The translations under genes were made by a program, and so were the position numbers. Shown piece by piece: positions 20,756 through 35,507 of a DNA stretch of 48,572 bases (the first letter of the stretch is position 1; every line of letters begins with the position of its first letter). The stretch spans positions 95,161 to 143,732 of the forward strand of contig CAYPYS010000001.1 in the NCBI GenBank assembly GCA_964415355.1. The letters are read 5' to 3'. Origin of the DNA: an uncultured Planctomycetia bacterium. Lineage in GTDB: Bacteria; Omnitrophota; Gorgyraeia; Gorgyraeales; Gorgyraeaceae. The notes under the pieces are model-generated. The model saw only the letters and a program-made list of their open reading frames with translations. It was not told the DNA's origin and did no database searches.

Positions 20756-20792
20756 TAACTTTACACTTTAACGTTGTTGAAGTGTAAAGTTA
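20756..20792 (-). repeat. Palindromic intergenic repeat R11 (B)
   Basis: TAACTTTACACTTTAACGTTGTTGAAGTGTAAAGTTA. aroE reads into it ([10 protein letters not shown]). Confidence 0.95.
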
Positions 20793-21612
20793 GCGCTTCT
20801 CTCATTGTTTCAATTGGGGCTTTCTGGTCGGTCCAGAACTCAAAGGCATGGACGCCCTGATACAAAAACATACCCAGGCCGCCTACTGCGCGGCCTTTTG
20901 CCTTTTTCACCAATTCTGTTTTTCTGTTATATACCACATCGTAGACAAACAAATCTTTGTGGAGCAACTCCTTATCCACAGGAGAATCATCGCCTTCTTT
21001 CATGCCAACAGGACTGGCATTGATCAATAATTGACAATCGGCTACAATGCTCGAAATTTCTTTTTTAGTGATAAATTGTAATTTTTCTTTGGCAATAGCG
21101 AATTTTTCAAAATGCTCTTTTGCTGATTTTACTGCTTTATCACTGGCTTCGTAGATGTATATTTTTTTGGGGTGCGGCAAGTCTTCGCATATCAACGCAG
21201 CGACAATCGCCCTGCCAGCACCACCGCAAGCAACAAGAAAAACATTTTTACCTTTAGGATCAAAACCCAAATCCTCTTTTAATGACCTGCGAAAACCCAG
21301 GACATCTGTATTCAAACAAAAGAATTCGCTTCCTTCTCTTTTTACTGTATTAATAGCTCCCGATAGCTGGACATAAGGCAAAACTTCCTTCGATCTCTTA
21401 TTTAAAATCTCTTTTGCTCTTACTTTATGCGGAACTGTAATATTAAAGCCTTTGACATTTTTTCTATTAAGAATAAAATCCTCGAGCTCTTCTGGTTTGA
21501 CTGCAAATTTTTTATATTCGGCCTTTATGCCCAGCTTTTTGAATGCGGCGTTGTGCATTGCAGGCGACAAGCTGTGTTTTATTGGCCAGCCTATTACTCC
21601 GTATATATCCAT
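20761..21612 (-). CDS. aroE: Shikimate dehydrogenase
   Basis: GVIGWPIKHSLSPAMHNAAF and NITVPHK motifs. The last 10 codons ([10 protein letters not shown]) plus the stop are encoded by repeat R11. Confidence 0.85.
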   Translation of the reverse strand: MDIYGVIGWPIKHSLSPAMHNAAFKKLGIKAEYKKFAVKPEELEDFILNRKNVKGFNITVPHKVRAKEILNKRSKEVLPYVQLSGAINTVKREGSEFFCLNTDVLGFRRSLKEDLGFDPKGKNVFLVACGGAGRAIVAALICEDLPHPKKIYIYEASDKAVKSAKEHFEKFAIAKEKLQFITKKEISSIVADCQLLINASPVGMKEGDDSPVDKELLHKDLFVYDVVYNRKTELVKKAKGRAVGGLGMFLYQGVHAFEFWTDQKAPIETMREALTLHFNNVKV

Positions 21613-21665
21613 CCCTGCTCCGTATAAATCGCAGGGGAGCTCAAGGCTCCCCTGTATCTAAATCT

Positions 21666-21700
21666 TAAGTTTACTTTTAACATTGTTGAAAGTAAACTTA
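21666..21700 (-). repeat. Palindromic intergenic repeat R12 (B, 35-nt variant with paired 1-nt deletions)
   Basis: TAAGTTTACTTTTAACATTGTTGAAAGTAAACTTA. Both arms are shortened by 1 nt and the stem is preserved. Contains the leuA stop. Confidence 0.9.
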
Positions 21701-23245
21701 GAGGTCGAGTTCTTTCTGCTTAGGCTTTGTTTTTCGCGATCGCGCGAAAAAGAGCCTGTTGGTTGCATTCACGTATGCCTTTGCGCTGGCCTCGATTATA
21801 TCAGTGGAGGCCCCTCTCCCTGAAACTTCTTTGCCCTTGCCAGGTTTTATCCTGACAGTGACCTCGCCCAAGGCGTCCTTACCCCTCGTTATAGACTTTA
21901 AAGAATAATCCAGGAGCGTACACTTGAGGCCTGTTATTTTGTCAATAGCCTTGTAGCAGGCATCCACAGGCCCATCACCGGTGGAAGATTTTTTCAGCAT
22001 CTTCGCGCCTTTTTTCAACGCTACTGCAGCGCGCGGGATGACCTTGCTTCCGCTTACTATATTAAGGTCTTCCAACCTATATGTTTCCGGTATAGAAATA
22101 ATTTCGTCCTCGACTATAGTCAAAAGATCCTCGTCAAATATCTCCTTCTTTTTATCAGCGAGGCTCTTGAAGCGCTCAAATGCCTTCAAAAGATCCTTCT
22201 GGTTAAGCTCGAATCCCAGCTTCTTAAGCCTCTCGGAAAACGCGTGTTTACCTGAATGTTTTCCGAGCACAAGCCGCGTCTCTCCGAAGCCCACGTCCTC
22301 TGGTTTCATAATCTCGTAGGTAGTGCGCTTCTTCAATATGCCGTCTTGATGCACGCCTGCTTCGTGGCTGAATGCGTTGCGGCCCACTATCGCCTTGTTC
22401 GGCTGCACCACAATGCCTGTGAGCTTGCTCACCAGGCGGCTCGCCTTATAGAGTTCCTCTGTATTTATCGACGTGGAAGCCTCAAAGATATCCTTGCGCG
22501 TATCCAGCGCCATCACGATCTCTTCCAGGGACGCATTACCTGCCCTCTCGCCAATGCCGTTGACAGTACATTCGACCTGCTCAGCGCCGTTCTCAATGGC
22601 TGCGAGGGAATTACTCACGCCAAGTCCAAGGTCATTGTGGCAATGCACACTAAGTATAGCCTTGCTTGAATTAGGGACTTTGTTTTTTATTGTATTTATT
22701 AGTGAACCAAATTCAATAGGGATCGCGTAACCTACTGTGTCAGGGATGTTCACTGTTTTCGCGCCTGCGGATATCACTGCTTCGACCACGCGGCACAGAA
22801 AATCCTTTTCAGAGCGCGAGGCATCCTCTGGCGAAAACTCGACATCATCACAAAACTTGCGTGCATATTCCACAGCCCACACAGCCTGCCGCAATATCTC
22901 ACTCTCTGCCTTTTTCAGTTTATACTGCATGTGGATTTTAGATGTTGCCAAAAACACATGGATGCGCGGCTTCTTTGCCTTTTTGACAGCGCGGGCGCAC
23001 GTCTCTATATCCTGCTTTGTAGCCCTTGCAAGACCACAAACGCTCGGTCCCTTGACCTCAGAAGCGACTTTACTGACTGCGTTGAAATCACCCTTCGAGG
23101 CAATGGGAAAACCCGCCTCGATCACGTCAACGCCTAGCCTTGCCAGCTGTTTCGCAATGTCAATCTTTGCCTTTATGTCGAGGCTCGCGCCAGGTGACTG
23201 TTCGCCATCTCTCAGAGTTGTATCGAAAATAATAATTCTTTTCAT
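21698..23245 (-). CDS. leuA: 2-isopropylmalate synthase (LeuA/CimA family)
   Basis: [16 protein letters not shown] and HCHNDLGL motifs. Start moved to the ATG at 23245 ([15 protein letters not shown] upstream) because the track's MLKCKVKDV extension is translated repeat R13. Stop codon lies in R12. Confidence 0.85.
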
Positions 23246-23253
23246 AACATCCT

Positions 23254-23290
23254 TAACTTTACATTTCAACAACGTTAAAGTGTAAAGTTA
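23254..23290 (+). repeat. Palindromic intergenic repeat R13 (A)
   Basis: Identical to R4. Contains the ilvC stop. The leuA ATG is 8 nt from the other end. Confidence 0.95.
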
Positions 23291-24277
23291 CTTTATCCAG
23301 TCCATCATGCCTCTTAATTTTTTGCCGATTACCTCTATTGGATGACTGTCGTCTTTTTTTCTTAATTCATTGAATGCAGGGCGGCCTTTTTCATTTTCCT
23401 TTATCCATTCCTTTGCGAACGCGCCTGACTGCACCTCTTTTAAGATCTTCTGCATCTCCTTGCGAGTCGCATCAGTTATGACCCTTTTACCTCTTGTTAC
23501 ATCGCCGTACTCTGCTGTGTCGGATACGCGTTTTCTCATTCCCTGGATACCTGTCTTGTATATTAAATCCGTAATGAGTTTTAATTCATGCAGGCACTCG
23601 AAATATGCTATCTCTGGTTGATATCCAGCATTGACAAGCGTCTCGAATCCTGCCTTCACGAGCTCGGTGACTCCGCCGCAAAGCACTGTCTGTTCCCCAA
23701 AAAGATCTGTCTCGGTTTCTTCTTTAAAAGTCGTCTCTATGACACCTGCCCTTGTGCCGCCTATGCCTTTTGCATAAGCAAGTCCTATCTTAGCAGCATT
23801 ACCAGAGGCGTCTTGAAAAACTGCCAATAAACACGGTACACCCTTTTTCTCTTCATACATCTGTCTTACGAGAGCGCCTGGTCCTTTTGGCGCTACCATG
23901 AAGACATCCACATCTTTCGGAGGCACGATCTGTTTAAAATGTATATTGAAGCCATGTGAAAACACAAGTGACTTGCCTTTTTTTAGATTCGGCTCAATTG
24001 CCTGCTTATAAACCTTTGCCTGCACATGATCCTGCGTCAATATCTGAATGACATCCGCTTGCTTTGCAGCGTCACTCGCCGAAACAGGCGCGAAACCGTC
24101 TTTCTGTGCAGTTTTGTAATTCTCAGTACCTTCTAATTCGCTTGCAATCACGTCCAGCCCGCTGTCCCGCAGATTCAAAGCCTGGCCGCGACCCTGAATA
24201 CCATAACCTATAATCGCTATCTTCTTTCCTTTTAACACATTCAAATCAGCGTCTTTGTCATAATACATCTTTGTCAT
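23288..24277 (-). CDS. ilvC: Ketol-acid reductoisomerase
   Basis: [21 protein letters not shown] and the class I KARI core. Stop codon lies in R13. Confidence 0.95.
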
Positions 24278-24315
24278 TACTGTTTTCCTCCTTATTATCG
24301 ATTTCGTCGAAAGCC

Positions 24316-24352
24316 TAACTTTACACTTTAACGTTGTTGAAATGTAAAGTTA
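24316..24352 (-). repeat. Palindromic intergenic repeat R14 (B)
   Basis: TAACTTTACACTTTAACGTTGTTGAAATGTAAAGTTA, the exact reverse complement of R4. Confidence 0.95.
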
Positions 24353-24366
24353 AGGTGGTGGGGTTT

Positions 24367-24840
24367 TTATTTGCGGCCCATGGCAATGCGGCCGGTCCTG
24401 ACGACCTCTGAAATCCCAAAAGGCTTCATGATCTCTATAAACGATTTTATCTTGTTCTGATCGCCCGTAACCTCTATGACTGCTGTCTCTTTCTTGACGT
24501 CGTCGATCTTTCCCTGGAACGTATCTGCTATCTGCAATATCTCTGAGCGGTTCTTGCTGTCGAGCTTGACCTTGACCATAACGAGTTCACGGTCAATAAA
24601 GTCCTCGCCCGTGAGATCGATCACCTTTATAACGTCGATAAGCCTGTTTAGTTGCTTCTTGACCTGCTCCAATGTCTTTTCATCGCCGTCAGCTACGATT
24701 GTCATTCTCGAGATACTAGGATCTTCGGTCTCGCCTACAGCAAGGGAATCGATGTTGAAACCTCTTGCGCTAAATAGACCTGATACGTGCGTTAGCACGC
24801 CAAAGTGATTCTCAACCAATACTGAAATTATTTTTTTCAT
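24367..24840 (-). CDS. ilvN: Acetolactate synthase small (regulatory) subunit
   Basis: ACT domain ISVLVENHFGVLTHVSGLFSARGFNIDSL. Confidence 0.9.
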   Translation of the reverse strand: MKKIISVLVENHFGVLTHVSGLFSARGFNIDSLAVGETEDPSISRMTIVADGDEKTLEQVKKQLNRLIDVIKVIDLTGEDFIDRELVMVKVKLDSKNRSEILQIADTFQGKIDDVKKETAVIEVTGDQNKIKSFIEIMKPFGISEVVRTGRIAMGRK

Positions 24841-24856
24841 TGCCTTTGCCTCTATC

Positions 24857-24893
24857 TAAGTTTACATTTTAACGTTGTTAAAGTGTAAACTTA
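24857..24893. repeat. Palindromic intergenic repeat R15 (chimeric arms), in tandem with R16
   Basis: TAAGTTTACATTTTAACGTTGTTAAAGTGTAAACTTA. B-type loop with an A-type right arm, giving a nearly perfect hairpin. Confidence 0.9.
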
Positions 24894-24899
24894 CGCGCC

Positions 24900-24936
24900 T
24901 AACTTTACATTTCAACAATGTTAAAATGTAAAGTTA
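24900..24936 (+). repeat. Palindromic intergenic repeat R16 (A)
   Basis: TAACTTTACATTTCAACAATGTTAAAATGTAAAGTTA. Contains the ilvB stop. 6 nt from R15. Confidence 0.95.
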
Positions 24937-26604
24937 GGCTAGGGCGCCGATCATTTTGTTGATAGCCTGGCCTGCCGGCACCATTGGAAACACATTTTCC
25001 TCTGGCTCGACTTGAAAATCTAAAATCACAGGCTTCTTTATGTCCAGCGCCTTTTTTATTGCTTTTTTCACTTCGCTTTTTTTCGTAACCCTTATCCCGC
25101 AGGCGCCGTACGCCTCTGCGAGTTTCACAAAATCAGGAGAATGCTCCAGCGTAGTGTGCGCATATCTCCTCTTATAAAAGAGCTCCTGCCACTGCCTGAC
25201 CATGCCGAGATAGCCATTGTTCAAAATCGCTATTTTTACCGGCAGCTTATTTGCAACAGCAGTCGTAAGCTCCTGGATATTCATCTGAATGCTTCCGTCA
25301 CCTGCAATGTCAAAGACAATTTTGTTCGGACAGCCGACTTGCGCGCCGATCGCTGCAGGAAAACCATAGCCCATTGTGCCGAGCCCGCCGCTCGAAATGA
25401 ACTGGCGCGGCTTTGTATAATTATAAAACTGCGCGGCCCACATCTGATTCTGTCCGACCTCGGTCGTAATGATGGCTTTGCCTTTTGTAAGCTCGCAGAT
25501 CTGCTCGACGACATACTGCGGTCGCAGCTTGGAATCGTTTTTGTAAGCAAGTGGGAACTTTTTCTTCCACTCCTCTATCTGCTTATGCCATTTGGCGATA
25601 TCAGGTTTTTTTATTTCTTTAACAAGGTCTTGCAAAATGCAATTGGCATCGCCCACTATCGGCACGTCGACTTTAACATTCTTACTTATCGCGCATGGGT
25701 CAATGTCAATATGTATGACCTTTGCATGCGGAGCAAACTCGTCGATCTTGCCTGTAACTCTATCGTCGAAGCGCGCGCCCACTGCTATTATAAGGTCTGA
25801 CTCCTGTATAGCGTGATTCGCGTACGCAGTTCCGTGCATGCCAAGCATACCGAGTGAAAGTTTATGCGTGGTCGGAAATGCACCCAGACCCATGAGCGTC
25901 ATAGTAACCGGAATCTCTGTCTTTTTGACAAATTCAGCGAGCTTCGCACTGGCACCTGAAATAATCACGCCACCGCCAACATAGAGCACAGGCCGTTTGC
26001 TGTGCGCAATGAGCCGCGCTGCCCTTTTTATCTGGCCGATATGGCCTTTGCATGTCGGCTTATAGCCTCTGATGTCTGCTTTTTCAGGATAATCAAAATT
26101 CGCTTCCTGTATTTGCATGTCTACTGGCAAGTCAACCGAAACCACGCCAGGCCTGCCTGTAGAGGCTATGTGAAACGCATTCTTTATGACAGTCGCTATA
26201 TTGTTAACATCTTTTACGAGATAGTTATGCTTTGAAATCGGCCGTGTTATGCCGCTGACATCAACTTCCTGAAAAGCGTCGTTCCCTATAAGCGAGGTCT
26301 TGACCTGGCCTGTAATAGCAACGACTGGCACAGAATCCATATTGGCTGTCGCGAGCCCTGTAACAAGGTTCGTCGCTCCAGGACCAGACGTAGCTAGGCA
26401 GACGCCGACCTTGCCGGTTGCGCGAGCGTAGCCGTCTGCTGCGTGGGCCGCACCCTGCTCGTGTCTCGTCAATATGAAATTTATGTCGCTGTCGTAAAGA
26501 ACGTCGAAAATCGGAAGCACCACGCCTCCAGGGTAACCAAAGATTACCTCAACGCCCTCTTTCTTAAGCGACTCTATTAATATCTTTGCGCCTGTCAATC
26601 TCAT
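24934..26604 (-). CDS. ilvB: Acetolactate synthase large subunit
   Basis: ThDP enzyme motifs GYPGG, GPGATN and GDGS..MN.QEL. Stop codon lies in R16. Confidence 0.9.
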
Positions 26605-26628
26605 AACCTTACCTCATATGTATGTACC

Positions 26629-26665
26629 TAACTTTACATTTCAACAACGTTAAAGTGTAAAGTTA
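26629..26665 (+). repeat. Palindromic intergenic repeat R17 (A)
   Basis: Identical to R4. The ilvD stop is 16 nt away. Confidence 0.95.
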
Positions 26666-26681
26666 GCGCCGCGAAAAATCC

Positions 26682-28437: not shown

Positions 28438-28474
28438 TAAGTATACATTTCAACAATGTTAAAGTGTAAACTTA
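28438..28474 (+). repeat. Palindromic intergenic repeat R18 (A, variant)
   Basis: TAAGTATACATTTCAACAATGTTAAAGTGTAAACTTA. Exact reverse complement of R5. The greA stop is 4 nt away. Confidence 0.95.
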
Positions 28475-28478: not shown

Positions 28479-28952
28479 CTAATCCCGCGATATCTTTATG
28501 ACTTTATACCTCAATGTGCCTGCCGGCACCCTTATATTTATGGCATCACCTTTCTTGCGGCCCAAAAGCGCCTTACCCACAGGCGATGAAATCGAAATCC
28601 TGCCCTGGCTAAAATCTGCCTCGTCCTCAGTTACTAATTTATAATCTATTTTCTCCTTAGAATCCATGTCTTCCAGCTTAAGATTGGCTCCTATATAAGC
28701 CTTGTCAGTAGAGATCGTTGTGTTCTCGATGATCTTTGCGCGGCCAAGCTTATTTACGAGCTCGGCGATTCTCTTCTCGTTTATTGCCTGTGACTGTTTT
28801 GCGGAATCGTATTCTGCGTTCTCGCTCAAGTCCCCCAAAAGCCTTGCCTTCTCGAGCGCATCCGCTATCTCCCTGCGCTTCTCTCCCTTAAGAAATTCCA
28901 ACTCCTTCTTTAGCTTCTCAAAACCTTTTTTAGTCAAAAAAACACCATCCAT
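28479..28952 (-). CDS. greA: Transcription elongation factor GreA
   Basis: GDLSENAEYDSAK coiled-coil motif and C-terminal FKBP-like domain. Confidence 0.9.
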   Translation of the reverse strand: MDGVFLTKKGFEKLKKELEFLKGEKRREIADALEKARLLGDLSENAEYDSAKQSQAINEKRIAELVNKLGRAKIIENTTISTDKAYIGANLKLEDMDSKEKIDYKLVTEDEADFSQGRISISSPVGKALLGRKKGDAINIRVPAGTLRYKVIKISRD

Positions 28953-28963
28953 AGTCGTCTCCT

Positions 28964-30079
28964 CTATTTATACACTCGCGGCACGCGTCGCCCGATATTA
29001 CAAACCACTTCATATGGGATCGTGCCCATGATATCGGCAAGATCTTCCGCTTTTATAGCCTCTTTTCCCTGCTTACCTATTAAAACTACTTCGTCTCCTG
29101 ATTTCACGCCCTGCAAATGCCCCACATCGACCATGCACATGTCCATGCATACCCTTCCCGCTATCGGCGCCAGGCGACCTCTTATTAAGACGTACGCTTT
29201 ATTCGACAAATGTCTGGAATAACCGTCTCCGTAGCCCACAGGTATAGTGGCAATCCGCGTTTCCTTTTCTGCAATATAGGTCCTTCCATAACTTATGGTT
29301 CTGCCCTTCGGTACCGATTTCACATGCGTAATTTTTGTCTTTAATGCCATCACCGGCTTTAAACCCAATCTTTTTACAAGGTCTTTTCTCGGATGCAAGC
29401 CATAAATTATAAGTCCCGGCCTCACTATATTCATATGCGAATCCTTGAAATCCACCAGTGCCATGCTGTTCGAAGCGTGTTTAAAAGGGATATTAATATT
29501 GTGAGACGATAACGCCTTCACAAGGAAATTAAAATCTTTTATTTGTCGCCGGGTAAATTTTTTATCATCTTCAGCGCTTGGAAAATGCGTAAAAATTCCG
29601 TCGATAACAATACTTTTGAGCGCTGCTATTTTTTTTACAAACTCGATCGCCTCTTCGTGCCAAAAACCAATCCTGCCCATGCCTGTATCGATCTTCACGT
29701 GCACCTTTATATTTTTCTTTTTGGCCTGGCCGAGCTTTGAAAGCAGCTTCGCTATTTTCAGATCAGACACGGTCTGAATTACGTTGAGTTTCAAGACGCC
29801 TTCTACTTCTTCGGGCAAGATCACTCCTAGTATAATGATTTTATTTTTAATTCCAGCTTCGCGCAGTTCCCGTGCTTCGTCAAGCGATGCAACGCCCAGA
29901 TATTCCACGCCTTCTTCGACCAGGACCCTCGAAACCTCTTTCATGCCATGGCCATACGCATCGGCCTTGATTACGCCGAGTATTTTGACGTCAGAGGCAA
30001 TCATCCGCCTTACCTTGCGCAGATTATGTCGTAGCGCATCTAAATCTATCTCTGCAAATGTCGGCCTGTAAAATCTCAT
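28964..30079 (-). CDS. alr: Alanine racemase
   Basis: PLP-lysine motif GVIKADAYGHG and a C-terminal beta domain. Confidence 0.9.
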   Translation of the reverse strand: MRFYRPTFAEIDLDALRHNLRKVRRMIASDVKILGVIKADAYGHGMKEVSRVLVEEGVEYLGVASLDEARELREAGIKNKIIILGVILPEEVEGVLKLNVIQTVSDLKIAKLLSKLGQAKKKNIKVHVKIDTGMGRIGFWHEEAIEFVKKIAALKSIVIDGIFTHFPSAEDDKKFTRRQIKDFNFLVKALSSHNINIPFKHASNSMALVDFKDSHMNIVRPGLIIYGLHPRKDLVKRLGLKPVMALKTKITHVKSVPKGRTISYGRTYIAEKETRIATIPVGYGDGYSRHLSNKAYVLIRGRLAPIAGRVCMDMCMVDVGHLQGVKSGDEVVLIGKQGKEAIKAEDLADIMGTIPYEVVCNIGRRVPRVYK

Positions 30080-30094
30080 CCCATCACCCGCTCC

Positions 30095-30131
30095 TAACTT
30101 TACATTTCAACAACGTTAAAATGTAAAGTTA
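30095..30131 (+). repeat. Palindromic intergenic repeat R19 (A)
   Basis: TAACTTTACATTTCAACAACGTTAAAATGTAAAGTTA. Contains the tsaB stop. Confidence 0.95.
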
Positions 30132-30815
30132 AGGTTTTGACTTTGTCTTCACCTGGCAATATCTCGAATATATATATAAAGGTTTAAGCTTGCCCAGGTC
30201 TTGCTTTCTGCGCATTTTTATATTTTTAAGGGCTAATTTTATAAGACAGCTTGCCTTTGGATACCAATATTTCTCGTCTAAAAAAATCGCTTTTCGACCC
30301 AACCGGCGTATCTCTTCTTTATAAAGAGTTACGCCATCGCCTAAAAATACCGCAGGGCCTTTTATCTTTTTCATAAGTGCCTCTACGGTTAACAAAAGGT
30401 AACCTGATGTCTTGGAAATTGTGCCATTTTTTCTCTTGTATATCGCAGAATACACCTGGTTTCTCTTTGCATCGATCACCGGCACTACAGTCGCCTTTTC
30501 GACATCGGCATTCATTGCCAGTGCGTCAATACTGGCCACGCCAATACACGGCTTCTTTGTGGCAATGCCAAATCCTTTCACAGAACTCACGCCGATGCGC
30601 AAGCCTGTAAACGAACCCGGTCCTAACCCTACGACGAACGCGCCAATATCATTGATCCGCGAATTGCATTTCTCTAAAAGCTCCTTGACCTTAGGCACCA
30701 GCAAGGCCGAATGCTGCCTGTCAAGCAGGTGAGATTCTTCCGCGATGATAAAATTATCCTCACCCAACGCCATGTTTAAAAATTTCGAACTTGTATCAAT
30801 CGCCAGGATCTTCAT
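30129..30815 (-). CDS. tsaB: tRNA t6A37 biosynthesis protein TsaB
   Basis: MKILAIDTSS...GLGPGSFTGLRIG. Stop codon lies in R19. Confidence 0.8.
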   Translation of the reverse strand: MKILAIDTSSKFLNMALGEDNFIIAEESHLLDRQHSALLVPKVKELLEKCNSRINDIGAFVVGLGPGSFTGLRIGVSSVKGFGIATKKPCIGVASIDALAMNADVEKATVVPVIDAKRNQVYSAIYKRKNGTISKTSGYLLLTVEALMKKIKGPAVFLGDGVTLYKEEIRRLGRKAIFLDEKYWYPKASCLIKLALKNIKMRRKQDLGKLKPLYIYSRYCQVKTKSKP

Positions 30816-30824
30816 ATCTCACGC

Positions 30825-30861
30825 TAACTTTACATTTCAACAACGTTAAAGTGTAAAGTTA
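30825..30861 (+). repeat. Palindromic intergenic repeat R20 (A)
   Basis: Identical to R4. Contains the tsaE stop. The tsaB ATG is 9 nt from the other end. Confidence 0.95.
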
Positions 30862-31266
30862 GGAAATAGTTATCTTTCTTTTACATTCGCCTTTAACCTT
30901 GATCTTTACAATTATGCAATTTTCGGGCAATATCTCTTTTATCTTCTCTGCCCATTCTATCACAGTAACACCGTCGCCATAAATATATTCTTTCACTCCG
31001 ATATTCTCTATGTCCTGCAGCCTGTCGAGTCTATATAAATCCAGATGATACATCGGCATCCTGCCGTTATATTCTTTTATCAGAACAAAAGTAGGGCTAT
31101 TTATATGGCGCGAGTCCTTCACTCCGAGCCCCCTGCCTATACCTTTGGTAAATGTAGTCTTGCCGCTTCCAAGGTCTCCGCAAAGAGCGATAACGTCTCC
31201 AGCCGAAAGTTTCTTAGCCAGCCTTGCCCCCAATTCTATCGTATCCTTAGCGCTTTTACTTATCAT
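30859..31266 (-). CDS. tsaE: tRNA t6A37 biosynthesis ATPase TsaE
   Basis: LCGDLGSGKTTFTKGI...SPTF...YHLDLYRL. Stop codon lies in R20. Confidence 0.85.
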   Translation of the reverse strand: MISKSAKDTIELGARLAKKLSAGDVIALCGDLGSGKTTFTKGIGRGLGVKDSRHINSPTFVLIKEYNGRMPMYHLDLYRLDRLQDIENIGVKEYIYGDGVTVIEWAEKIKEILPENCIIVKIKVKGECKRKITIS

Positions 31267-31275
31267 AATTCCGCC

Positions 31276-31312
31276 TAACTTTACACTTTAACGTTGTTGA
31301 AACGTAAAGTTA
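31276..31312 (-). repeat. Palindromic intergenic repeat R21 (B, variant)
   Basis: TAACTTTACACTTTAACGTTGTTGAAACGTAAAGTTA. Contains the thiL stop. Confidence 0.95.
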
Positions 31313-32212
31313 GAAATGCGAATAGCCAGAAGGTCTTACTTTTCGCTCTCTCCCATTCTTTTTTATTATACAAAATCCTTTGCGCTTGCCGCAAATTTTT
31401 CCTATCCTGGAAAGACGCGTTTTAAACGGCCATATCTTTTCTAATCTAAGAGCTGATTTTTGCGGCAATGTAAAGACTAATTCAAAATCCTCGCCTTCTT
31501 TTGCGGCCGTGTTAAAGCTTTTTGCATTTTTTGACAATGGCACGCTCTTCTCACAAATTACTGCGCCTGCTTTACTCGCCTCCAATATATGGCCAAGATC
31601 AGCTAACAACCCGTCAGAAACATCTATCATAGAACTGATTTTGAAATTTCTTACCAAAAAACGCGATTCCTTAAGGCGCGGGGTAAAATCCAAATGTTTG
31701 CCTTTTGAAGCACCGCCAATGCTACCCGTAATAAATATCACATCTCCTGTTTTGGCCCCGCTACGCAATACCAAACTATCTTTTTCAACGCTGCCCAAAA
31801 GCGCTATGTTCACAATTATCTTTTTTGAAGCAATAGTGTCCCCGCCTACTAAATCAACGCCATGCCTCTTAGCCACATCTCTCATACCTTTATATAATGT
31901 ATCAACGTACTTTACATCAAGGGTAGACGGCACACCCAGAGACACCAATGCAAACTCAGGCACCCCGCCCATAGCCGCGATATCGCTTATGTTAGAAGAA
32001 ATGCATTTTTTCCCGACTAGGCTCGCACCTGCTCGTCTATAAAAATGCACGTCCTCCAAAAGCATATCAGAAGTAAACAAAAGATGTTTATCTTTCGTAT
32101 ATCTCAGGACAGCTGCATCGTCTCCTATGCCCTTTGCCACTTTCTTGGAGAGCTTTACGCGCGCCGAGATTCTCTTTATTAAATTAAATTCTCCTAAATC
32201 TTTTAATATCAT
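31310..32212 (-). CDS. thiL: Thiamine-monophosphate kinase
   Basis: GEFNLIKRI, GDDAAVL and GGDT motifs of the AIR synthase-related fold. Stop codon lies in R21. Overlaps mtnA by 29 nt. Confidence 0.8.
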   Translation of the reverse strand: MILKDLGEFNLIKRISARVKLSKKVAKGIGDDAAVLRYTKDKHLLFTSDMLLEDVHFYRRAGASLVGKKCISSNISDIAAMGGVPEFALVSLGVPSTLDVKYVDTLYKGMRDVAKRHGVDLVGGDTIASKKIIVNIALLGSVEKDSLVLRSGAKTGDVIFITGSIGGASKGKHLDFTPRLKESRFLVRNFKISSMIDVSDGLLADLGHILEASKAGAVICEKSVPLSKNAKSFNTAAKEGEDFELVFTLPQKSALRLEKIWPFKTRLSRIGKICGKRKGFCIIKKNGRERKVRPSGYSHF

Positions 32213-33206
32213 ATACGCCTGATTCAGTTATTATGGCGGTTATAAGTCCATGGGGCGTGACGTCGAACGCCGGGTTAAATACCCTGGCATTTTTTGGAGC
32301 AGTCTGTTTTACTCCAACATATATCAACTCCTCGCGTTTTCTCTCTTCTATGGGGATATCTTTTCCCGTCTTTATATTTCTGTCTATAGTAGAACTCGGC
32401 GCCGCTATATAAAAAGGTATCTTGTGGTATCTCGCAAGCACTGCCAGGCCATAAGTCCCGATCTTGTTCGCAGCGTCTCCGTTCCTCGCTATCCTGTCAG
32501 CGCCCACAATGATCTTAGTCACGCGTTTCTCTCTTATCGTCGCAGCCGCCATGTCATCGCATATGAGCGTCGCGTCAATGCCGTTCTTCATTAGTTCCCA
32601 CATAGTAAGGCGTGAGCCCTGCATCAGCGGTCTTGTCTCATCCGCGTACACCTTAAATCTCTTTCCCTGCTTTTTTGCCTCATAAAAAACAGAAAGAGCT
32701 GTGCCATAGCCTGCAGTCGCGAGCATGCCTGCGTTGCAATGCGTAAGCACGGCATCTTTATTCTTTATCAGTTTTGCGCCGTTTCTTCCTATTGCGCGGC
32801 ACATCTCTCTATCTTCTTTTAGAATACAAAGCGCTTCATCTAAGACAACTTTTTTTGCTCTTATCACTGAAAACTGCCGACAACTGTTAAATTTATCCTG
32901 CATCCTTTTGAGCGCCCAAAAAAGATTGACTGCGGTCGGCCTCGTCTTTCTCAACTTATCCGACGCCACATTCAAATCTCTCCTAAGCCCACTCAATGTC
33001 TTTGCCTTTGAATTTATCGCAGCCAATGCATAGCCTAGCGCAACGCTGACTCCTATAAGCGGCGCCCCGCGCACCCTTAATTTCTCTATTGCCTCGCACA
33101 TCGCAGCAATGTCCTTGCATCTTACGAATTTAAGCGCCGACGGTAATTCTGTCTGGTCAATAAAAACTATGCTATTTTTTTCCCACCTTATCGGCTCCAG
33201 CAACAT
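32184..33206 (-). CDS. mtnA: S-methyl-5-thioribose-1-phosphate isomerase (eIF-2B-like family)
   Basis: FIDQTELP...VRGAPLIG...THCNAG and GADRIARNGD.ANKIGTY motifs. Confidence 0.8.
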   Translation of the reverse strand: MLLEPIRWEKNSIVFIDQTELPSALKFVRCKDIAAMCEAIEKLRVRGAPLIGVSVALGYALAAINSKAKTLSGLRRDLNVASDKLRKTRPTAVNLFWALKRMQDKFNSCRQFSVIRAKKVVLDEALCILKEDREMCRAIGRNGAKLIKNKDAVLTHCNAGMLATAGYGTALSVFYEAKKQGKRFKVYADETRPLMQGSRLTMWELMKNGIDATLICDDMAAATIREKRVTKIIVGADRIARNGDAANKIGTYGLAVLARYHKIPFYIAAPSSTIDRNIKTGKDIPIEERKREELIYVGVKQTAPKNARVFNPAFDVTPHGLITAIITESGVYDIKRFRRI

Positions 33207-33222
33207 AGCCTCTCCCTTAAGT

Positions 33223-33259
33223 TAACTTTACATTTCAACAACGTTAAAGTGTAAAGTTA
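33223..33259 (+). repeat. Palindromic intergenic repeat R22 (A)
   Basis: Identical to R4. Contains the stop of the DUF362 gene. Confidence 0.95.
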
Positions 33260-34366
33260 CAGCCCAAGACCCCTTGCCAATATATTCCGCCTGAGCTTGA
33301 CTGCATCATACGGACACACCTCATTACAGCACATGCACTTGATGCATTTAACCGCATCGATAACTGATGTCTCTTTATTTATTGTAATAGCGGACACCGG
33401 GCATGTATCTCGGCAAATATTGCATTTTTTGCAAAGCCCTTCGTCTATATAAGGCCCGAACTTCACAAGACTCGCCACCGCCCTTATAAGAAAACCGGGT
33501 AATTTAAAAATAAGCCTTGAATGAGGGAGCCTGAAATTCTTTATCAAATTATCCTTTAGCGTCTCACCTAAAATATCTATTTTTTTTATATCTGCCTCGC
33601 CAAGCCCCCTTTTCGCAGCTTCTTTTGTAGACAGGATCTTAAAAGGGTCCATACCGATCAGATGCGAAAATATAACATCTAGCGCCACGCTATCTGCGCT
33701 CGCCATCAAAAGCCCCGCCGGATTTAATGTCCCTGCTGCTGGCCCGTCTCCGTCCATTGCAATCACGCCATCCATCAGGGCAAGTTGCGGCTTCACGGCA
33801 TCGAAGACATCGACCAGGACATTGCAAAATTCCTCTTCCCTGGGAAATCTCTTGTGGCATTCGGATTTATTTAAGCCTGACACCGCGCCAAACATATTTT
33901 TTACAGCTCCTGTCAATATCATCAGGTTATGAGTTTTCATCTTCGGCAAAGATATGATCTTATCACACTCAAAAAAATAAGAAGCTATCGGCAAGCCCTT
34001 GATCATCTTTACATTTTTCGTCTCCAAAAGCTCGACGCCTTCTTCTTTCGCGATCCGCGCCATGCCTGAAGACTCATATATCTCCCGGACCTGGACCCCC
34101 CTGCACCCTCCCGGAGTATCCCCTATCAAAGGATATGCGCCGCATTCCCTTACTAGTTTCACGACAGCTCTAACGACCTCCACGTGAGTATTGGCTCCTT
34201 TTTCCGGACCGCTGCCTGAAAGCATATTAGGCTTAATAAGCACCTTCTCGCCTTTATTTACAAACGCGGATATGCCGCCTAAAAGATCAAAGGCCTGACG
34301 CACGCACGACCCCAGGATCTCCTGGCTATATGTCTTACATTTTACAATCGAAACTCTTGCACTCAC
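33257..34366 (-). CDS. DUF362 domain protein with C-terminal 2x[4Fe-4S] ferredoxin domain
   Basis: VLIKPNM core of DUF362 plus CKKCNICRDTCP and CIKCMCCNEVCP clusters. Start set to the GTG at 34366 (AGGAGG 9 nt upstream) because the track's MLKCKV extension is translated repeat R23. Stop codon lies in R22. Confidence 0.75.
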   Translation of the reverse strand: MSARVSIVKCKTYSQEILGSCVRQAFDLLGGISAFVNKGEKVLIKPNMLSGSGPEKGANTHVEVVRAVVKLVRECGAYPLIGDTPGGCRGVQVREIYESSGMARIAKEEGVELLETKNVKMIKGLPIASYFFECDKIISLPKMKTHNLMILTGAVKNMFGAVSGLNKSECHKRFPREEEFCNVLVDVFDAVKPQLALMDGVIAMDGDGPAAGTLNPAGLLMASADSVALDVIFSHLIGMDPFKILSTKEAAKRGLGEADIKKIDILGETLKDNLIKNFRLPHSRLIFKLPGFLIRAVASLVKFGPYIDEGLCKKCNICRDTCPVSAITINKETSVIDAVKCIKCMCCNEVCPYDAVKLRRNILARGLGL

Positions 34367-34380
34367 TTTATCAATCCTCC

Positions 34381-34417
34381 TAACTTTACATTTCAACAAC
34401 GTTAAAGTGTAAAGTTA
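34381..34417 (+). repeat. Palindromic intergenic repeat R23 (A)
   Basis: Identical to R4. Contains the stop of the CPBP gene. Confidence 0.95.
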
Positions 34418-35455
34418 AGCCATTAGTTCTTTTATAAAGAACACGAAGCCGACGATAATCGCATTATGCAGGATGTGCACTGCCATCGAAGCGACAAGCG
34501 ACCCTGTCCTCTCATAAAGGTAAACCAAAAGCAAACCCAGTATCATGATCGGGAAAAAACCGACAATATTCGTATGCAGGAGACTAAAAACTGACGCGCT
34601 TATAAACGCAGCCCCTATCACACCAATATGTTTTTTAACGGCATTGTACATAAACCCTCGAAAAAATATCTCCTCAATAATAGGCCCCAGGATGGAAACG
34701 AATATCGCAAAGAACGCAAGAAATACGCCTCTCTTTTCTTCCATGAACATTTCAAATACAGGCTGAGGCTCGGGCTTATAGCCCAAGATATTCAAAATCC
34801 ATAAAGAAAAAATCAAGACCGTGAATAAAAGCGGCAGAATAAAAATATACCCCGCTATGCCTGATGAAATATTTTTAAATAAAGAAGATAATTTCAAGCC
34901 TAGCGAAACCAGTGTATCCTTGCATTTAACCACTACAAAATACAACACCACTATAACCACGGCAATATCTATAAAAAAAGTGCTGATCATCATGCGCAAA
35001 TTGATCCCGATATCTAATTGCAATAATTCATATATAATGCTTTCTGCAAGGCCTAAGACATAACTCATGAAAACAATAACAAGGCTCGCCCTTAAAAGGT
35101 CGGGAACGCCCCAGGAAATATCCTCTCTCCCTCGAGAAGACGACAAGGATGAAAAAGAAAAAGCAAAAGGCCTTATCCTGAAAATAAAAGCTAAATTCAT
35201 CACAATGGAAAACATAAATACTAAAAATCCCAAGATTATCGCGTATTTAAAAAACCTTGCACTTAGCTTGCCTGAGGACAAAAAATCCTTGACCCTCTCT
35301 TCGGTAACTCCGATCTCCTCAAGGGTCATCTCTGAAAAGGATTTTTCTGACTTTACCTGCTTTTTTTCCGACTGCCCTGCGCTCATAAAATTCACAGCCA
35401 GTATAAAGAGCAGCATGAATATGTATATTTTTTCTCGTCTTATAAAATCCAGCAT
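34415..35455 (-). CDS. CPBP family intramembrane glutamic endopeptidase (CAAX protease-like)
   Basis: EEIFFRG, FSLLH and HILHN motifs in a polytopic membrane protein. Stop codon lies in R23. Confidence 0.75.
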   Translation of the reverse strand: MLDFIRREKIYIFMLLFILAVNFMSAGQSEKKQVKSEKSFSEMTLEEIGVTEERVKDFLSSGKLSARFFKYAIILGFLVFMFSIVMNLAFIFRIRPFAFSFSSLSSSRGREDISWGVPDLLRASLVIVFMSYVLGLAESIIYELLQLDIGINLRMMISTFFIDIAVVIVVLYFVVVKCKDTLVSLGLKLSSLFKNISSGIAGYIFILPLLFTVLIFSLWILNILGYKPEPQPVFEMFMEEKRGVFLAFFAIFVSILGPIIEEIFFRGFMYNAVKKHIGVIGAAFISASVFSLLHTNIVGFFPIMILGLLLVYLYERTGSLVASMAVHILHNAIIVGFVFFIKELMA

Positions 35456-35470
35456 GGTAATGCCCTCTCG

Positions 35471-35507
35471 TAACTTTACACTTTAACGTTGTTGAAATGT
35501 AAAGTTA
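35471..35507 (-). repeat. Palindromic intergenic repeat R24 (B)
   Basis: Identical to R14. tatD reads into it (NFTFQQR*). Confidence 0.95.

What the first reader, a model, noticed from the sequence alone, without database searches (positions are those of the whole stretch)
20756..35507. The repeat supplies the stop codon of the upstream gene in 22 of 32 copies and has stops in all six frames
In 20 copies the terminal TAA of the repeat is exactly the stop codon of the preceding gene. In ORF-track terms, the gene end falls on the last 3 nt of R1, R3, R4, R5, R12, R13, R16, R19-R23 and R25-R31, and on the first 3 nt of R8 for the plus-strand RND gene. The other two frames are also used. aroE reads through R11 and ends ...[10 protein letters not shown] at the GTG-TAA of the distal arm. 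tatD reads into R24 and ends ...NFTFQQR* at CGT-TAA near the loop. By direct reading, orientation A has TAA in frame 1 (nt 1-3), frame 2 (nt 23-25) and frame 3 (nt 30-32). Orientation B has TAA at nt 1-3, 14-16 and 30-32. Any ORF entering from either side is therefore terminated. In the remaining 3'-flanking copies the native stop lies only 4-20 nt upstream. Two explanations fit: insertion is targeted to stop codons or TA-containing sites, or insertions clip gene ends and are tolerated because the element always restores termination. In all 20 stop-capturing copies the nucleotide just beyond the distal TTA/TAA is G or A in gene orientation, giving a distal TAG or TAA. That fits a TA target-site duplication inside an original TAG/TAA stop. 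It fits an element-encoded CTAAC...GTTAG end equally well.
Basis: seen in the sequence. Interest (0 to 1): 0.85.

Follow-up and report, generated by a model that had tools for sequence, protein, structure and literature searches.

The report
Palindromic repeats that end genes
A 37-41 base hairpin-forming repeat fills almost every gap between genes in this uncultivated Omnitrophota genome, and because its ends read TAA it has become the stop codon of most upstream genes; this is an extreme, undescribed example of a known kind of bacterial repeat, not a new mechanism.

Summary
The window has 32 copies of TAACTTTACATTTCAACAACGTTAAAGTGTAAAGTTA. In 20 copies the gene-proximal TAA is the stop codon of the adjacent gene. 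AroE and TatD read 10 and 7-8 codons into the repeat.

Orthologues show both tails are not native. Relatives' TatD ends LF-x-L/F*, and the window carries a 10-nt junction deletion. AroE orthologues end AL-x-x-A-L/I-K*.

The TA-duplication reading is not supported. The flanking pyrimidine/purine also occurs at copies with no nearby stop, including those in divergent spacers. The element is really a 41-nt palindrome, CC-TAAC...GTTA-GG. No empty orthologous site differs by element plus TA.

New findings:
- 30 of 34 junctions with room carry a copy.
- At least 13 of 16 junctions carry the element in both the window and a related genome (TatD 85% identical).
- Copy sequence follows the genome, not the locus, so the family evolves in concert.
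- Eight of 17 stem pairs show compensatory changes.

Stops in all six frames occur in 22% of random palindromes of this composition. REP termini are already known to supply stop codons.

Verdict: a REP-like interspersed palindrome. Stop capture is a by-product of TAA ends plus trimmed spacers.

The parts
295..331 (.). R1, 37-nt palindrome. Its last 3 nt (329-331) are the TAA stop of the VTT-domain gene 329-1012 (minus).
2323..2359 (.). R2. The native TAA of methyltransferase gene 2368-3165 (minus) ends 8 nt upstream, so the stop is not captured.
3202..3238 (.). R3. Captures the stop of the PIN/PhoH gene 3236-4528 (minus).
4560..4596 (.). R4. Captures the stop of pfk 4594-5679 (minus).
7599..7635 (.). 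R5 (TAAG...CTTA subfamily). Captures the stop of gene 7633-9642 (minus).
9691..9727 (.). R6. Lies in a divergent (5'-5') spacer with no stop nearby, yet has the same T...G flanks.
12415..12450 (.). R7, 36 nt with a 1-nt deletion in one arm. Lies in the 465-nt spacer after gene 11928-12353 (plus).
17608..17644 (.). R8. Its first 3 nt are the TAA stop of the plus-strand RND transporter 14497-17610. Convergent spacer.
18117..18153 (.). R9. Lies in a divergent spacer, with C...G flanks.
19918..19954 (.). R10, pilD>aroC junction. The native TAA of pilD ends 15 nt upstream. The junction is empty in the related genome, and the old GGAGG-TAG-ATT-ATG survives downstream of the copy.
20756..20792 (.). 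R11. aroE (20761-21612, minus) reads through it and stops at repeat nt 30-32 (20761-20763). The tail [10 protein letters not shown] is element-encoded.
21666..21700 (.). R12, 35 nt with matching 1-nt deletions in both arms. Captures the leuA stop at the native position (ELDL* in four genomes).
23254..23290 (.). R13. Captures the ilvC stop. The related genome keeps the native TAA plus an 18-nt spacer before its copy.
24316..24352 (.). R14, ilvN>ilvC junction. The native TAA ends 14 nt upstream. Flanks are conserved with the related genome, so this is an orthologous copy.
24857..24893 (.). R15, second member of a doublet with R16 (6-nt spacer). TAAG...CTTA subfamily.
24900..24936 (.). R16. Captures the ilvB stop at the native position (GALA* in the window and CAYULJ; EGLA* in L039).
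26629..26665 (.). R17, ilvD>ilvB junction. The native TAG ends 16 nt upstream. An orthologous copy is present in the related genome.
28438..28474 (.). R18, greA>ilvD junction. The native TAG ends 4 nt upstream. In the related genome the orthologous copy is split by a nested palindromic element.
30095..30131 (.). R19. Captures the tsaB stop (KP* in three genomes). An outgroup has CCA-TGA overlapping the alr start.
30825..30861 (.). R20. Captures the tsaE stop. The orthologous copy also captures it.
31276..31312 (.). R21. Captures the stop of the AIRS-domain gene 31310-32212. The orthologous copy is 36/37 identical.
33223..33259 (.). R22. Captures the stop of the DUF362 gene. The related genome keeps the native TAG plus a 17-nt spacer before its copy.
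34381..34417 (.). R23. Captures the stop of the Rce1-like gene. This junction is empty (overlapping ATGA) in the related genome.
35471..35507 (.). R24. tatD (35483-36316, minus) reads in and stops at repeat nt 23-25 (35483-35485). There is a 10-nt junction deletion relative to the related genome.
37429..37465 (.). R25. Captures the metG stop. The orthologous copy captures it too but has its centre flipped.
39016..39052 (.). R26. Captures the stop of PSP1-domain gene 39050-39859.
40841..40877 (.). R27. Captures the tmk stop.
41506..41542 (.). R28. Captures the cysS stop.
43456..43492 (.). R29. Captures the ispD stop.
44187..44223 (.). R30. Captures the stop of gene 44221-45240.
45241..45273 (.). 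R31, half-decayed copy. The gene-proximal arm still supplies the TAA of the MlaD gene 45271-45999. The distal half is replaced by an AAGGGGGA ribosome-binding site that abuts the next start codon.
47574..47610 (.). R32. The native TAA of gene 47631-48536 ends 20 nt upstream.

Best explanation
This is a family of short interspersed imperfect palindromes of the REP kind, belonging to a lineage of Candidatus Omnitrophota.

The element:
- The core is 37 nt, and 41 nt with its usual CC/GG extension.
- It folds into a 13+3 bp hairpin with one conserved C.A mismatch.
- It has spread to nearly every intergenic spacer that has room.
- Its two ends read TAA and TTA because that is the element's own sequence.

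How stop capture arises (partly inferred):
- In this compact genome the spacers around each copy have been trimmed to the functional minimum. Upstream they are trimmed until the gene's own stop merges with the element's terminal TAA. Downstream they are trimmed to a 9-16 nt ribosome-binding site.
- The TA(A/G)...TAA microhomology makes an in-frame merge an easy deletion, and the merged state is absorbing.
- If erosion goes a few bases further, the gene runs into the element and is stopped by one of its internal TAAs. This costs 2-7 native residues and adds 5-10 element-coded ones (AroE, TatD).

Shown here:
- Most copies are old: they occupy the same junctions as in a related genome.
- Copies stay alike within a genome and differ between genomes, so some copy-correction or replace-in-place process acts on them.
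- The stem is maintained by compensatory changes.
- The two tails are non-native.

Inferred:
- Trimming, not stop-targeted insertion, produced most offset-0 copies.
- The homogenising agent is probably a single-copy hairpin-specific enzyme acting in trans, as RAYT does for REPINs.
For: Identity and structure:
- 32 copies in 48.6 kb, 2.4% of the window. 30 of 34 junctions with room are occupied, across co-directional, convergent and divergent spacers.
- Hairpin energy is -10.7 to -12.4 kcal/mol as RNA. DNA z-scores are -4.8 to -7.3.
- 8 of 17 stem pairs have double-sided changes: 39 cells against 13.5 in shuffles, 0 of 500 shuffles reaching that. The slid-partner controls collapse.
- Lineage-specific variants of the family occur in at least six related MAGs or contigs.

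Age and concerted evolution:
- Synteny with CAYULJ010000003.1 shows at least 13 of 16 junctions filled in both genomes (two of these carry only the outer arms, around a nested element), 2 filled in the window only and 3 more empty in both. Flanks are conserved, for example at ilvN>ilvC.
- Orthologous pairs share 33.0 of 37 nt, the same as non-orthologous between-genome pairs (32.98). Within-genome paralogues share 36.4 and 35.6. The centre is flipped in 3 of 10 orthologous pairs.

Termini are the element's own:
- The C/T...G/A flanks are the same at capturing and non-capturing copies. The last sense codon ends in C in 13 of 19 capturing copies (p = 2e-5).

Trimming:
- DUF362>IF2B and ilvC>leuA have an identical last sense codon in both genomes. 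The relative keeps a native TAG/TAA plus 17-18 nt before its copy, and the window is merged.
- Spacers are shorter or equal in the window at 9 of 11 shared junctions.
- tatD carries a 10-nt junction deletion.
- aroE meets its junction element in three different frames: the window in frame 3, CAYULJ and L118 in frame 2, and L039 at offset 0.
- R31 has lost its distal arm but keeps the TAA.

Native stop positions and precedent:
- Stop positions are preserved at ilvB, leuA, tsaB and DUF362.
- REPINs are vertically inherited and persist at orthologous sites (titles and abstracts).
Against: - No mobilising enzyme was found. None of the 48 window ORFs and none of the called genes in L118, L122, L127 or L128 hits a transposase family. 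Less than about 10% of any one genome was seen.
- The element lacks the GTAG/CGTC head of classical REPs.
- The direction of the merged versus unmerged difference is not polarised by an outgroup.
- No offsets of -1 to -6 are seen among about 10 unmerged copies. A purely gradual trimming model would predict about 2 (P about 0.07).
- Stop-targeted arrival would give the same offset-0 peak at once.
- Ectopic gene conversion between 37-nt tracts is at the lower limit for homologous recombination, so the homogenising mechanism is unexplained.
- Strong conservation and saturation could equally mean the hairpin is useful to the host.
Confidence: 0.55

Rival explanations
1. TA-targeting miniature transposon of the IS630/Tc1-mariner type. 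The mobile body is ACTTTACA...TGTAAAGT. It integrates into TA, preferring CTAG/YTAR, and duplicates it. The TA of a TAG/TAA stop is the most permissive TA in tight operon junctions, so most surviving insertions regenerate TAA proximally and leave TAG/TAA distally.
For: - TA sits at both ends, and the flanks are C...G or T...A in 57 of 62 cases. This fits a YTAR target as known for IS630 (my knowledge, not tested).
- Both orientations are used, 19 A and 12 B.
- The same outer arms TAA(C/G)TTTAC flank different interiors in L039 and L126, and flank a nested larger element in CAYULJ, as expected if the termini are what an enzyme recognises.
- Re-insertion at a reused target would explain flipped centres and subfamily swaps at conserved junctions.
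Against: - The flank conservation extends to position -2 (C in 39 of 62). In CAYULJ it extends to CT...AG and GCT...AGC, and in UBA10183 to AAACA...TGTTT with no terminal TA at all. The flanks therefore behave as part of the palindrome.
- None of the empty/filled pairs is element plus TA. pilD>aroC has a 63-nt insert flanked by GGNAGG, with the old TAG intact downstream. At Rce1>DUF362 the start region is remodelled. The tsaB>alr outgroup stop is TGA with no TA.
- No pair of arms 0.7-2 kb apart, and no transposase, occurs in about 0.9 Mb of held loci.
- At 37 nt the element is below the usual MITE size.
Confidence: 0.15
2. Host-selected intercistronic punctuation. The hairpin is transcribed within operons and is kept because it does something for expression: it protects the upstream cistron's 3' end, provides an RNase processing site, or gates the downstream ribosome-binding site so that translation is coupled. 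The stop codon at its foot and the GG(AG) after it would then be functional parts of one cassette.
For: - The position is exact: the stop is nt 1-3, and the distal end lies 9-16 nt before the next start, often running straight into GGAG.
- Copies are conserved at orthologous junctions over about 15% protein divergence, while neighbouring synonymous sites differ.
- Compensatory changes keep the stem.
- The closing C-G pair recruits the last sense codon's third base.
- REPs are reported to modulate mRNA stability (PMC3733652 discussion).
Against: - Both orientations occur about equally relative to transcription: 13 A and 15 B in the gene direction.
- Copies also sit in divergent promoter spacers (R6, R9) and in long untranslated gaps.
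- Close relatives do without the element at the same junctions, or use unrelated hairpins there (L119, L121, L124).
- There is no U-tract and no sigma-70 consensus.
- Locus-by-locus selection does not explain genome-wide switches of the 4/34 pair or the flipped centres.
- No expression data exist.
Confidence: 0.2
3. DNA-level recognition site, such as an uptake-signal-like sequence or the binding site of a nucleoid or recombination protein. It would be kept uniform within a species by biased recombination, like the dialects of neisserial uptake sequences.
For: - Density is 0.64 per kb in the window and 0.57 per kb in CAYULJ. By my recollection this is in the range of uptake sequences.
- Species-specific variants sit at conserved positions.
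- Type IV pilus genes are in the window (pilD, a pseudopilin with an N_methyl motif, PilX_N).
Against: - Single arms are not enriched outside the palindromes. ACTTTACA occurs once against 1.0 expected, and CTTTACA 10 times against 8.0 +/- 2.7.
- Covariation of the types C-G to G-C and T-A to C-G points to base pairing, not to a fixed protein-read sequence.
- Flipped centres are unexpected for this model.
- There is no functional evidence.
Confidence: 0.05

Closest known systems
REP / REPIN elements (repetitive extragenic palindromes) with their RAYT transposase, including the GTAG- and CGTC-tagged super-families
   Same: - 20-40 nt imperfect palindromes, in high copy and extragenic.
- Mostly between co-directional or convergent genes, as singlets and occasional inverted doublets (R15/R16).
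- Termini that supply the stop codon of the flanking ORF (PMC3733652).
- Vertical inheritance, persistence at orthologous sites and genome-specific sequence populations (papers listed).
   Different: - No GTAG or CGTC head. The ends are (C)TAAC.
- A+T-rich stem instead of G+C-rich.
- Density of about 0.6 per kb, with 30 of 34 usable spacers filled. By my recollection this is several-fold above E. coli or Pseudomonas.
- No RAYT gene seen in the sequence available.
- Found in Omnitrophota, where no such family is described in the searched literature.
Bacterial MITEs with TA duplication (Correia/NEMIS elements of Neisseria, ERIC/IRU of enterobacteria, IS630-derived elements)
   Same: - Terminal inverted repeats bounded by TA.
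- Insertion in either orientation next to genes.
- Occasional in-frame overlap with gene ends.
- The same outer arms bracket different interiors.
   Different: - 37 nt is far shorter than those elements (about 100-170 nt).
- The whole element is one hairpin.
- The flanks behave as part of the palindrome, not as a duplicated target.
- No simple empty site and no autonomous partner were found.
Mycobacterial interspersed repetitive units (MIRUs)
   Same: Intercistronic position inside operons, with the element overlapping the stop codon of the upstream gene and lying just before the next start. This description is from my knowledge of Supply et al. 1997, which is not in the searched library.
   Different: - MIRUs are 40-100 nt direct (not palindromic) units.
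- They have a fixed orientation relative to transcription, are often tandemly repeated, and carry short ORFs that couple translation.
- Here both orientations occur and tandem copies are rare.
Integron attC sites
   Same: - An imperfect palindrome directly after a gene.
- The consensus ends CCTAAC...GTTAGG resemble the inverse core RYYYAAC and core GTTRRRY, whose TAA often ends cassette ORFs (my knowledge).
   Different: - Only 7 of 31 copies match RYYYAAC, 7 of 31 match GTTRRRY, and 1 of 31 matches both.
- The element is too short.
- There are mismatches instead of extrahelical bases.
- Both orientations occur.
- The flanking genes are syntenic housekeeping genes, not cassettes.

Membership tests
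REP / REPIN-RAYT | Short (about 20-40 nt) imperfect palindrome, in high copy and extragenic | tested here: met
   37-41 nt, 32 copies in 48.6 kb, all intergenic or at gene ends. The hairpin is supported by covariation.
REP / REPIN-RAYT | Conserved GTAG or CGTC tetranucleotide at one end of the palindrome | tested here: not met
   All copies start (C/T)TAAC or TAAG. No GTAG or CGTC head is present.
REP / REPIN-RAYT | A single-copy RAYT (Y1 HUH transposase) gene flanked by the repeats | tested here: inconclusive
   No transposase family among the 48 window ORFs or among the called genes of L118, L122, L127 and L128. Only a small part of any one genome was available.
REP / REPIN-RAYT | Vertical inheritance with copies at orthologous positions, and a genome-specific master sequence | tested here: met
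   At least 13 of 16 junctions filled in both genomes. Within-genome identity is 36.4 and 35.6 of 37, against 33.0 between orthologues.
MITE (TA-duplicating, IS630/Tc1-like) | Target-site duplication (TA) flanking terminal inverted repeats | tested here: not met
   TA is present at both ends, but conservation continues outwards (CC/GG, CT/AG, AAACA/TGTTT). The empty/filled pairs are not element plus TA. No very recent insertion was available, so this is not an absolute exclusion.
MITE (TA-duplicating, IS630/Tc1-like) | A related autonomous IS with the same ends | tested here: inconclusive
   No arm pairs 0.7-2 kb apart in the window or in 128 held loci. Whole genomes were not searchable.
MIRU | Fixed orientation with respect to the operon, direct-repeat unit, tandem arrays | tested here: not met
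   In the gene direction, orientation A occurs 13 times and B 15 times. The element is palindromic. There is one doublet only.
Integron attC | R''/R' boxes RYYYAAC and GTTRRRY at the two ends, a single orientation, and a cassette context with intI | tested here: not met
   7 of 31 and 7 of 31 matches, with both in 1 of 31. The flanking genes are housekeeping genes in conserved synteny.
Intrinsic terminator / sigma-70 promoter | G+C-rich hairpin followed by a T-run, or -35/-10 hexamers with A2 and T6 | tested here: not met
   The consensus scan of 20000-39999 reports no promoter-like site at any copy. The only terminator-like hit touching one (20779-20799) pairs the outer part of R11's arm with flanking sequence and is not the palindrome's own hairpin.
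Uptake signal sequence (DUS/USS) | A short core motif over-represented genome-wide, including inside genes | tested here: not met
   Arm 7- and 8-mers outside the palindromes occur at chance frequency.
Any Rfam RNA family | Match to a curated covariance model | tested here: not met
   The gathering-threshold scan of the window finds only a c-di-GMP-I riboswitch. A permissive scan of 30050-31350 gives only chance-level hits.

The most novel reading that the evidence does not exclude
The palindrome is not merely tolerated junk. It would be a standardised intercistronic cassette of these Omnitrophota: a stop codon at its foot, a hairpin, and the first bases of the next ribosome-binding site. A dedicated enzyme would actively rewrite it to a genome-specific master sequence at fixed chromosomal positions. 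That would make it a genome-wide, sequence-homogenised punctuation system for operon mRNAs, with in-place copy correction of more than 1000 dispersed 37-nt sites.
Probability: 0.12. Interest if true: 0.75.

Novelty: new variant of a known kind. Interest (0 to 1): 0.42.

Why it matters
- It documents, in a phylum known almost only from metagenomes, an interspersed hairpin repeat at near-saturation: about 0.6 per kb, in 30 of 34 usable spacers.
- The repeat has taken over the termination codon of roughly 60% of adjacent genes and has rewritten the C-termini of at least two housekeeping enzymes.
- For annotation, gene callers will systematically add repeat-encoded tails (AroE, TatD) or call starts inside the repeat. 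Assemblers will break contigs at these copies.
- For evolution, the window versus CAYULJ comparison is a clean natural example of concerted evolution of dispersed 37-nt elements at conserved loci. Complete genomes of this clade would make the homogenising mechanism directly testable.
- It does not reveal a new principle. REP termini supplying stop codons and vertically inherited REPIN populations are both already described.

Tried and rejected
- **Stop-codon relic.** Rejected as evidence for a TA duplication, because the same purine/pyrimidine flank occurs at non-capturing copies and in divergent spacers.
- **Six-frame stops as a designed feature.** Rejected: 22% of random palindromes of this composition have them.
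- **attC/integron resemblance (CCTAAC/GTTAGG).** Tested and rejected.
- **Promoter or intrinsic terminator.** No consensus hits at the copies. I also checked by eye that TTTACA-N17-TGTAAA lacks the key -10 bases.
- **Uptake-sequence model.** Arm k-mers are not enriched outside the copies.
- **Phage or viral origin.** No match in viral contigs.
- **Rfam.** Nothing.
- **Autonomous element.** I searched the window and all held loci for unpaired or distant arm pairs and found none.
- **Clean empty site.** The metagenome scan with IlvC returned only relatives at 78% identity or less. Closer relatives (L119-L126, 81-89% for AroE or TatD) carry other hairpin families or decayed remnants at the same junctions. 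The TA-duplication test therefore could not be done on a fresh insertion.
- **Extending past the window's far end.** Failed, because the protein is not on record.
- **Technical failures.** A first fuzzy-regex scan under-counted copies and was replaced by a Hamming scan. One literature query failed on term length.

Full report
**What is there**

The window is 48,572 nt with 41-50% G+C, and nearly all genes are on the minus strand. It carries 32 copies of an imperfect palindrome with consensus TAACTTTACATTTCAACAACGTTAAAGTGTAAAGTTA. I call this orientation A, and its reverse complement orientation B. That is 0.64 copies per kb and 2.4% of the sequence.

Pfam scans of all 48 long ORFs show ordinary housekeeping genes and no transposase. 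These include ilvD-B-N-C, leuA, aroE, pilD, aroC, metG, cysS, tmk, ispDF, tsaBE, alr, greA, tatD, an RND pump and Mla genes.

AroE and TatD homologues that carry a source name are labelled Candidatus Omnitrophota/Omnitrophica. The window lies on JGI contig Ga0118720_1000045, which is 159.5 kb.

**Checking the observation**

I mapped the copies onto the ORFs.
- In 20 copies the gene-proximal three bases of the repeat are the gene's TAA.
- AroE reads through R11 and ends [10 protein letters not shown] at repeat nt 30-32.
- TatD reads into R24 and ends NFTFQQR* at nt 23-25.
- In the remaining 3'-flanking copies the native stop ends 4-20 nt upstream.

Twenty of 30 copies at offset 0 is far beyond random placement, with p about 1e-25. 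Ten further kilobases of the same contig, outside the window, give two more offset-0 copies out of three that sit next to a CDS. One of these is after smpB. The third follows a TGA stop.

Two elements of the finding are correct but carry no weight.
- Stops in all six frames are found in 22% of random palindromes built from the same arm composition.
- The purine just beyond the distal end is not specific to stop-capturing copies (see "The TA-duplication idea" below).

**The two tails**

AroE:
- Forty-four AroE orthologues end ...MR(K/E)AL-x-x-A-(L/I)-K* or similar. The window protein diverges after AL.
- Nucleotide comparison with an 81%-identical relative (L119) shows shared ...GAAGCGCTAA. After that the window continues with the repeat, while L119 continues with native codons.

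TatD:
- Fifty-three TatD orthologues end ...NAK-x-LF plus 2-3 residues. The window has LF-NFTFQQR.
- The syntenic relative CAYULJ010000003.1 has CTCTT-TTCATTACCT-TAAGATCACA..., with the stop at the element's first TAA. The window has CTCTT-TAACTTTACA....
- This is a 10-nt loss that throws the first TAA out of frame.

Both tails are therefore element-encoded, and in both proteins native residues were lost as well as added.

At the aroE>pilD junction an element of this family is present in four genomes, but it meets aroE in three different frames:
- L039 at offset 0;
- CAYULJ and L118 in frame 2, with tails KFTLQQC* and NFTFQQ*;
- the window in frame 3.

This is what one expects if small indels at the junction are harmless because some TAA always follows.

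**The TA-duplication idea**

I folded the two flanks of every copy onto each other. Position -1 is C in 43 of 62 flanks and a pyrimidine in 57 of 62. Position -2 is C in 39 of 62. The non-capturing copies give the same picture (C or T in 22 of 24), including R6 and R9 in divergent spacers that contain no stop codon. The element is therefore a 41-nt palindrome, CC-TAAC...GTTA-GG.

Further points against the TA-duplication model:
- In capturing copies the third base of the last sense codon is C in 13 of 19, against 22% for codon third positions overall (p = 2e-5). This base pairs with the distal G.
- In the CAYULJ genome the conserved extension is CT...AG, often GCT...AGC. The last codon of orthologous genes changes accordingly: metG is CTC in the window and TCT in CAYULJ, and tsaE is TCC and GCT.
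- In MAG UBA10183 a sister family ends AAACAAC...GTTGTTT, with no terminal TA.

Junctions that are empty in one genome and filled in the other do not differ by element plus TA.
- pilD>aroC is GGGAGG-TAG-ATT-ATG in CAYULJ. In the window it is GGCAGG-CAA-TAA, then 15 nt, the palindrome, GCTTT, and GGAGG-TAG-ATT-ATG. The old stop is still in place downstream.
- Rce1>DUF362 is an overlapping ATGA in CAYULJ. In the window it is remodelled with a new GGAGG and a GTG start.
- At tsaB>alr, the outgroup L118 has CCA-TGA overlapping the start, with no TA at all.

These comparisons span at least 15% protein divergence. They argue against the simple model but cannot exclude it for the original events.

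**What the copies are like as a population**

The scan of species-representative genomes found the family in several related MAGs. Other hits, for example in Bacillus, did not carry the full arm-loop-arm element when re-scanned and are presumably chance matches.

CAYULJ010000003.1 has TatD 85% identical to the window's and is collinear with window positions of about 19,000-39,000.
- Of 19 junctions compared, at least 13 carry the element in both genomes at the same place.
- Two junctions are filled only in the window (Rce1>DUF362 and pilD>aroC). Three are tight or overlapping and empty in both.
- At two of the shared junctions, CAYULJ has only the outer arms of the element around a nested, unrelated palindromic element.
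- Offset-0 capture is shared at metG, the AIRS gene, tsaE, tsaB, ilvB and leuA.

Yet the sequence of a copy is predicted by its genome, not its locus:
- orthologous pairs share 33.0 of 37 nt;
- non-orthologous between-genome pairs share 32.98;
- paralogues within the window share 36.4, and within CAYULJ 35.6.

The main diagnostic is the pair 4/34. It is C-G in most window copies and G-C in most CAYULJ copies. Both types exist in both genomes, and at leuA>aroE the states are swapped. The asymmetric centre is flipped in 3 of 10 orthologous pairs.

This is concerted evolution or replace-in-place turnover at conserved loci. At ilvN>ilvC the flanks on both sides are conserved, so the locus itself was not re-created.

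**Structure**

- The 37-mer folds to -10.7 (A) and -12.4 (B) kcal/mol as RNA.
- As DNA the z-scores are -4.8 to -7.3.
- On an alignment of 33 distinct variants from seven genomes, 8 of 17 stem pairs show changes on both sides. These include C-G/G-C at 4/34, T-A/C-G/G-C at 7/31, T-A/A-T at 6/32 and T-A/C-G at 1/37.
- That is 39 doubly changed cells against 13.5 +/- 2.6 in shuffles (0 of 500). Pairing collapses when partners are slid.
- Pair 14/24 is a conserved C.A mismatch (20 of 33).
- Each orientation has one G.T/G.U wobble and one C.A mismatch, so neither strand is favoured.
- Orientation is unbiased relative to transcription (13 A, 15 B) and on the chromosome (19 to 12, p = 0.28).

**What it is not**

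- No Rfam family matches.
- No sigma-70 or intrinsic-terminator consensus falls on the hairpin itself.
- It is not attC: 7 of 31 and 7 of 31 copies match the box patterns, and 1 of 31 matches both.
- It is not uptake-sequence-like, because single arms occur at chance frequency outside the palindromes.
- It is absent from viral contigs.
- No full-length element with these ends exists in any held locus.

**How stop capture most likely arises**

The spacers of occupied junctions are close to the minimum. Gaps of 43-50 nt are typical: 34 nt of element after the stop plus 9-16 nt holding the ribosome-binding site.

At DUF362>IF2B and ilvC>leuA both genomes have the same last sense codon. CAYULJ keeps a native TAG/TAA plus 17-18 nt before its copy, whereas the window is merged. 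Spacers are shorter or equal in the window at 9 of 11 shared junctions.

A deletion between the TA of the native stop and the TA of the element's TAA gives exactly the merged state, and once merged nothing more can be removed. I therefore favour erosion to an absorbing state, with the internal TAAs catching over-erosion (tatD, aroE) and R31 showing the end stage.

Direct arrival at stop codons would give the same distribution and is not excluded. The merged/unmerged pairs are not polarised by an outgroup.

**Comparison with what is known**

- Work on REPIN-RAYT systems describes vertically inherited, long-persisting sequence populations at orthologous positions.
- The present family shares these behaviours. 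It lacks the GTAG/CGTC head, is A+T-rich, is several-fold denser, and has no identified enzyme.
- No paper in the searched library mentions such repeats in Omnitrophota.

I therefore class it as a new variant of a known kind. The headline phenomenon, a repeat supplying the stop, is real and striking in degree but not new in principle. The concerted evolution at conserved loci is the more interesting lead.

Noticed in passing
window 6628-6712 (minus): A c-di-GMP-I riboswitch (Rfam RF01051, 81.6 bits, E = 1e-14) lies upstream of an unannotated 141-aa ORF (6172-6597). This is one of only four roomy spacers without the palindrome.
   Followed up: no
window 21632-21654; also L119, L121, L124: A second, G+C-rich hairpin family, CAGGGGAGC-N5-GCTCCCCTG. 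It sits in the leuA>aroE spacer and is conserved there in two relatives (L119, L121). It recurs at tatD>Rce1 in L124, which lacks the 37-mer there.
   Followed up: partly
L122:11098-11203, L127:6632-6734, L007:5320-5410: In the CAYULJ genome a larger palindromic element (AAAAATAGGGACAGACACCTATTTTT...AAAAATAGGTGTCTGTCCCTATTTTT) sits between the outer arms of the 37-mer (CTTAAGTTTAC...GTAAACTTAAG). It is either nested in the 37-mer or shares its termini.
   Followed up: partly
L122 (upstream of metG and tsaE>tsaB), L124:2440-2500: A third hairpin family, ATTCCCGC-TTTC-GCGGGAATGACA, lies directly beside copies of the 37-mer in relatives.
   Followed up: no
L039:9331-9369: A different 39-nt palindrome that also has TAA...TTA ends (TAATGTTACAAAACGAGT-ATG-ACTTGTTTTGTAACATTA). 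It fills the pilD>aroC junction in a more distant relative, so TAA-ended palindromes at gene ends may be common in this clade.
   Followed up: no
L126:2318-2378: A relative with TatD 86% identical shares the window's frameshifted tatD/repeat junction. It has a further insertion of about 37 nt inside the repeat, giving a different tail (NFTYRVALH*).
   Followed up: partly
window 24857-24936: The only doublet: two copies of different subfamilies (TAAG...CTTA and TAAC...GTTA) in opposite centre orientation, 6 nt apart. It resembles a REPIN-like pair.
   Followed up: no
window 21666-21700: R12 has lost one base from each arm at mirror positions, so the hairpin is preserved. This fits palindrome correction by template switching.
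   Followed up: no
L128:20181-20330 and about 19470-19620: Just beyond the window, a copy captures the smpB stop and is followed by what looks like the 5' end of tmRNA (GGGGGCGAAAGGTTTCGAC). Another copy lies next to a tRNA-like stretch. Neither was checked with ARAGORN.
   Followed up: no
L001 vs L002 (pilD, locus positions 3870-4643): Contigs with identical AroE differ in the called length of pilD (169 aa against 257 aa). This suggests a strain-level frameshift or a start-calling difference next to R11.
   Followed up: no
window 23254-23290 and 34381-34417: The longest-ORF starts of leuA and the DUF362 gene fall inside the upstream repeat (TTG at repeat nt 16-18). Automatic annotation is therefore likely to over-extend N-termini as well as C-termini.
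   Followed up: partly
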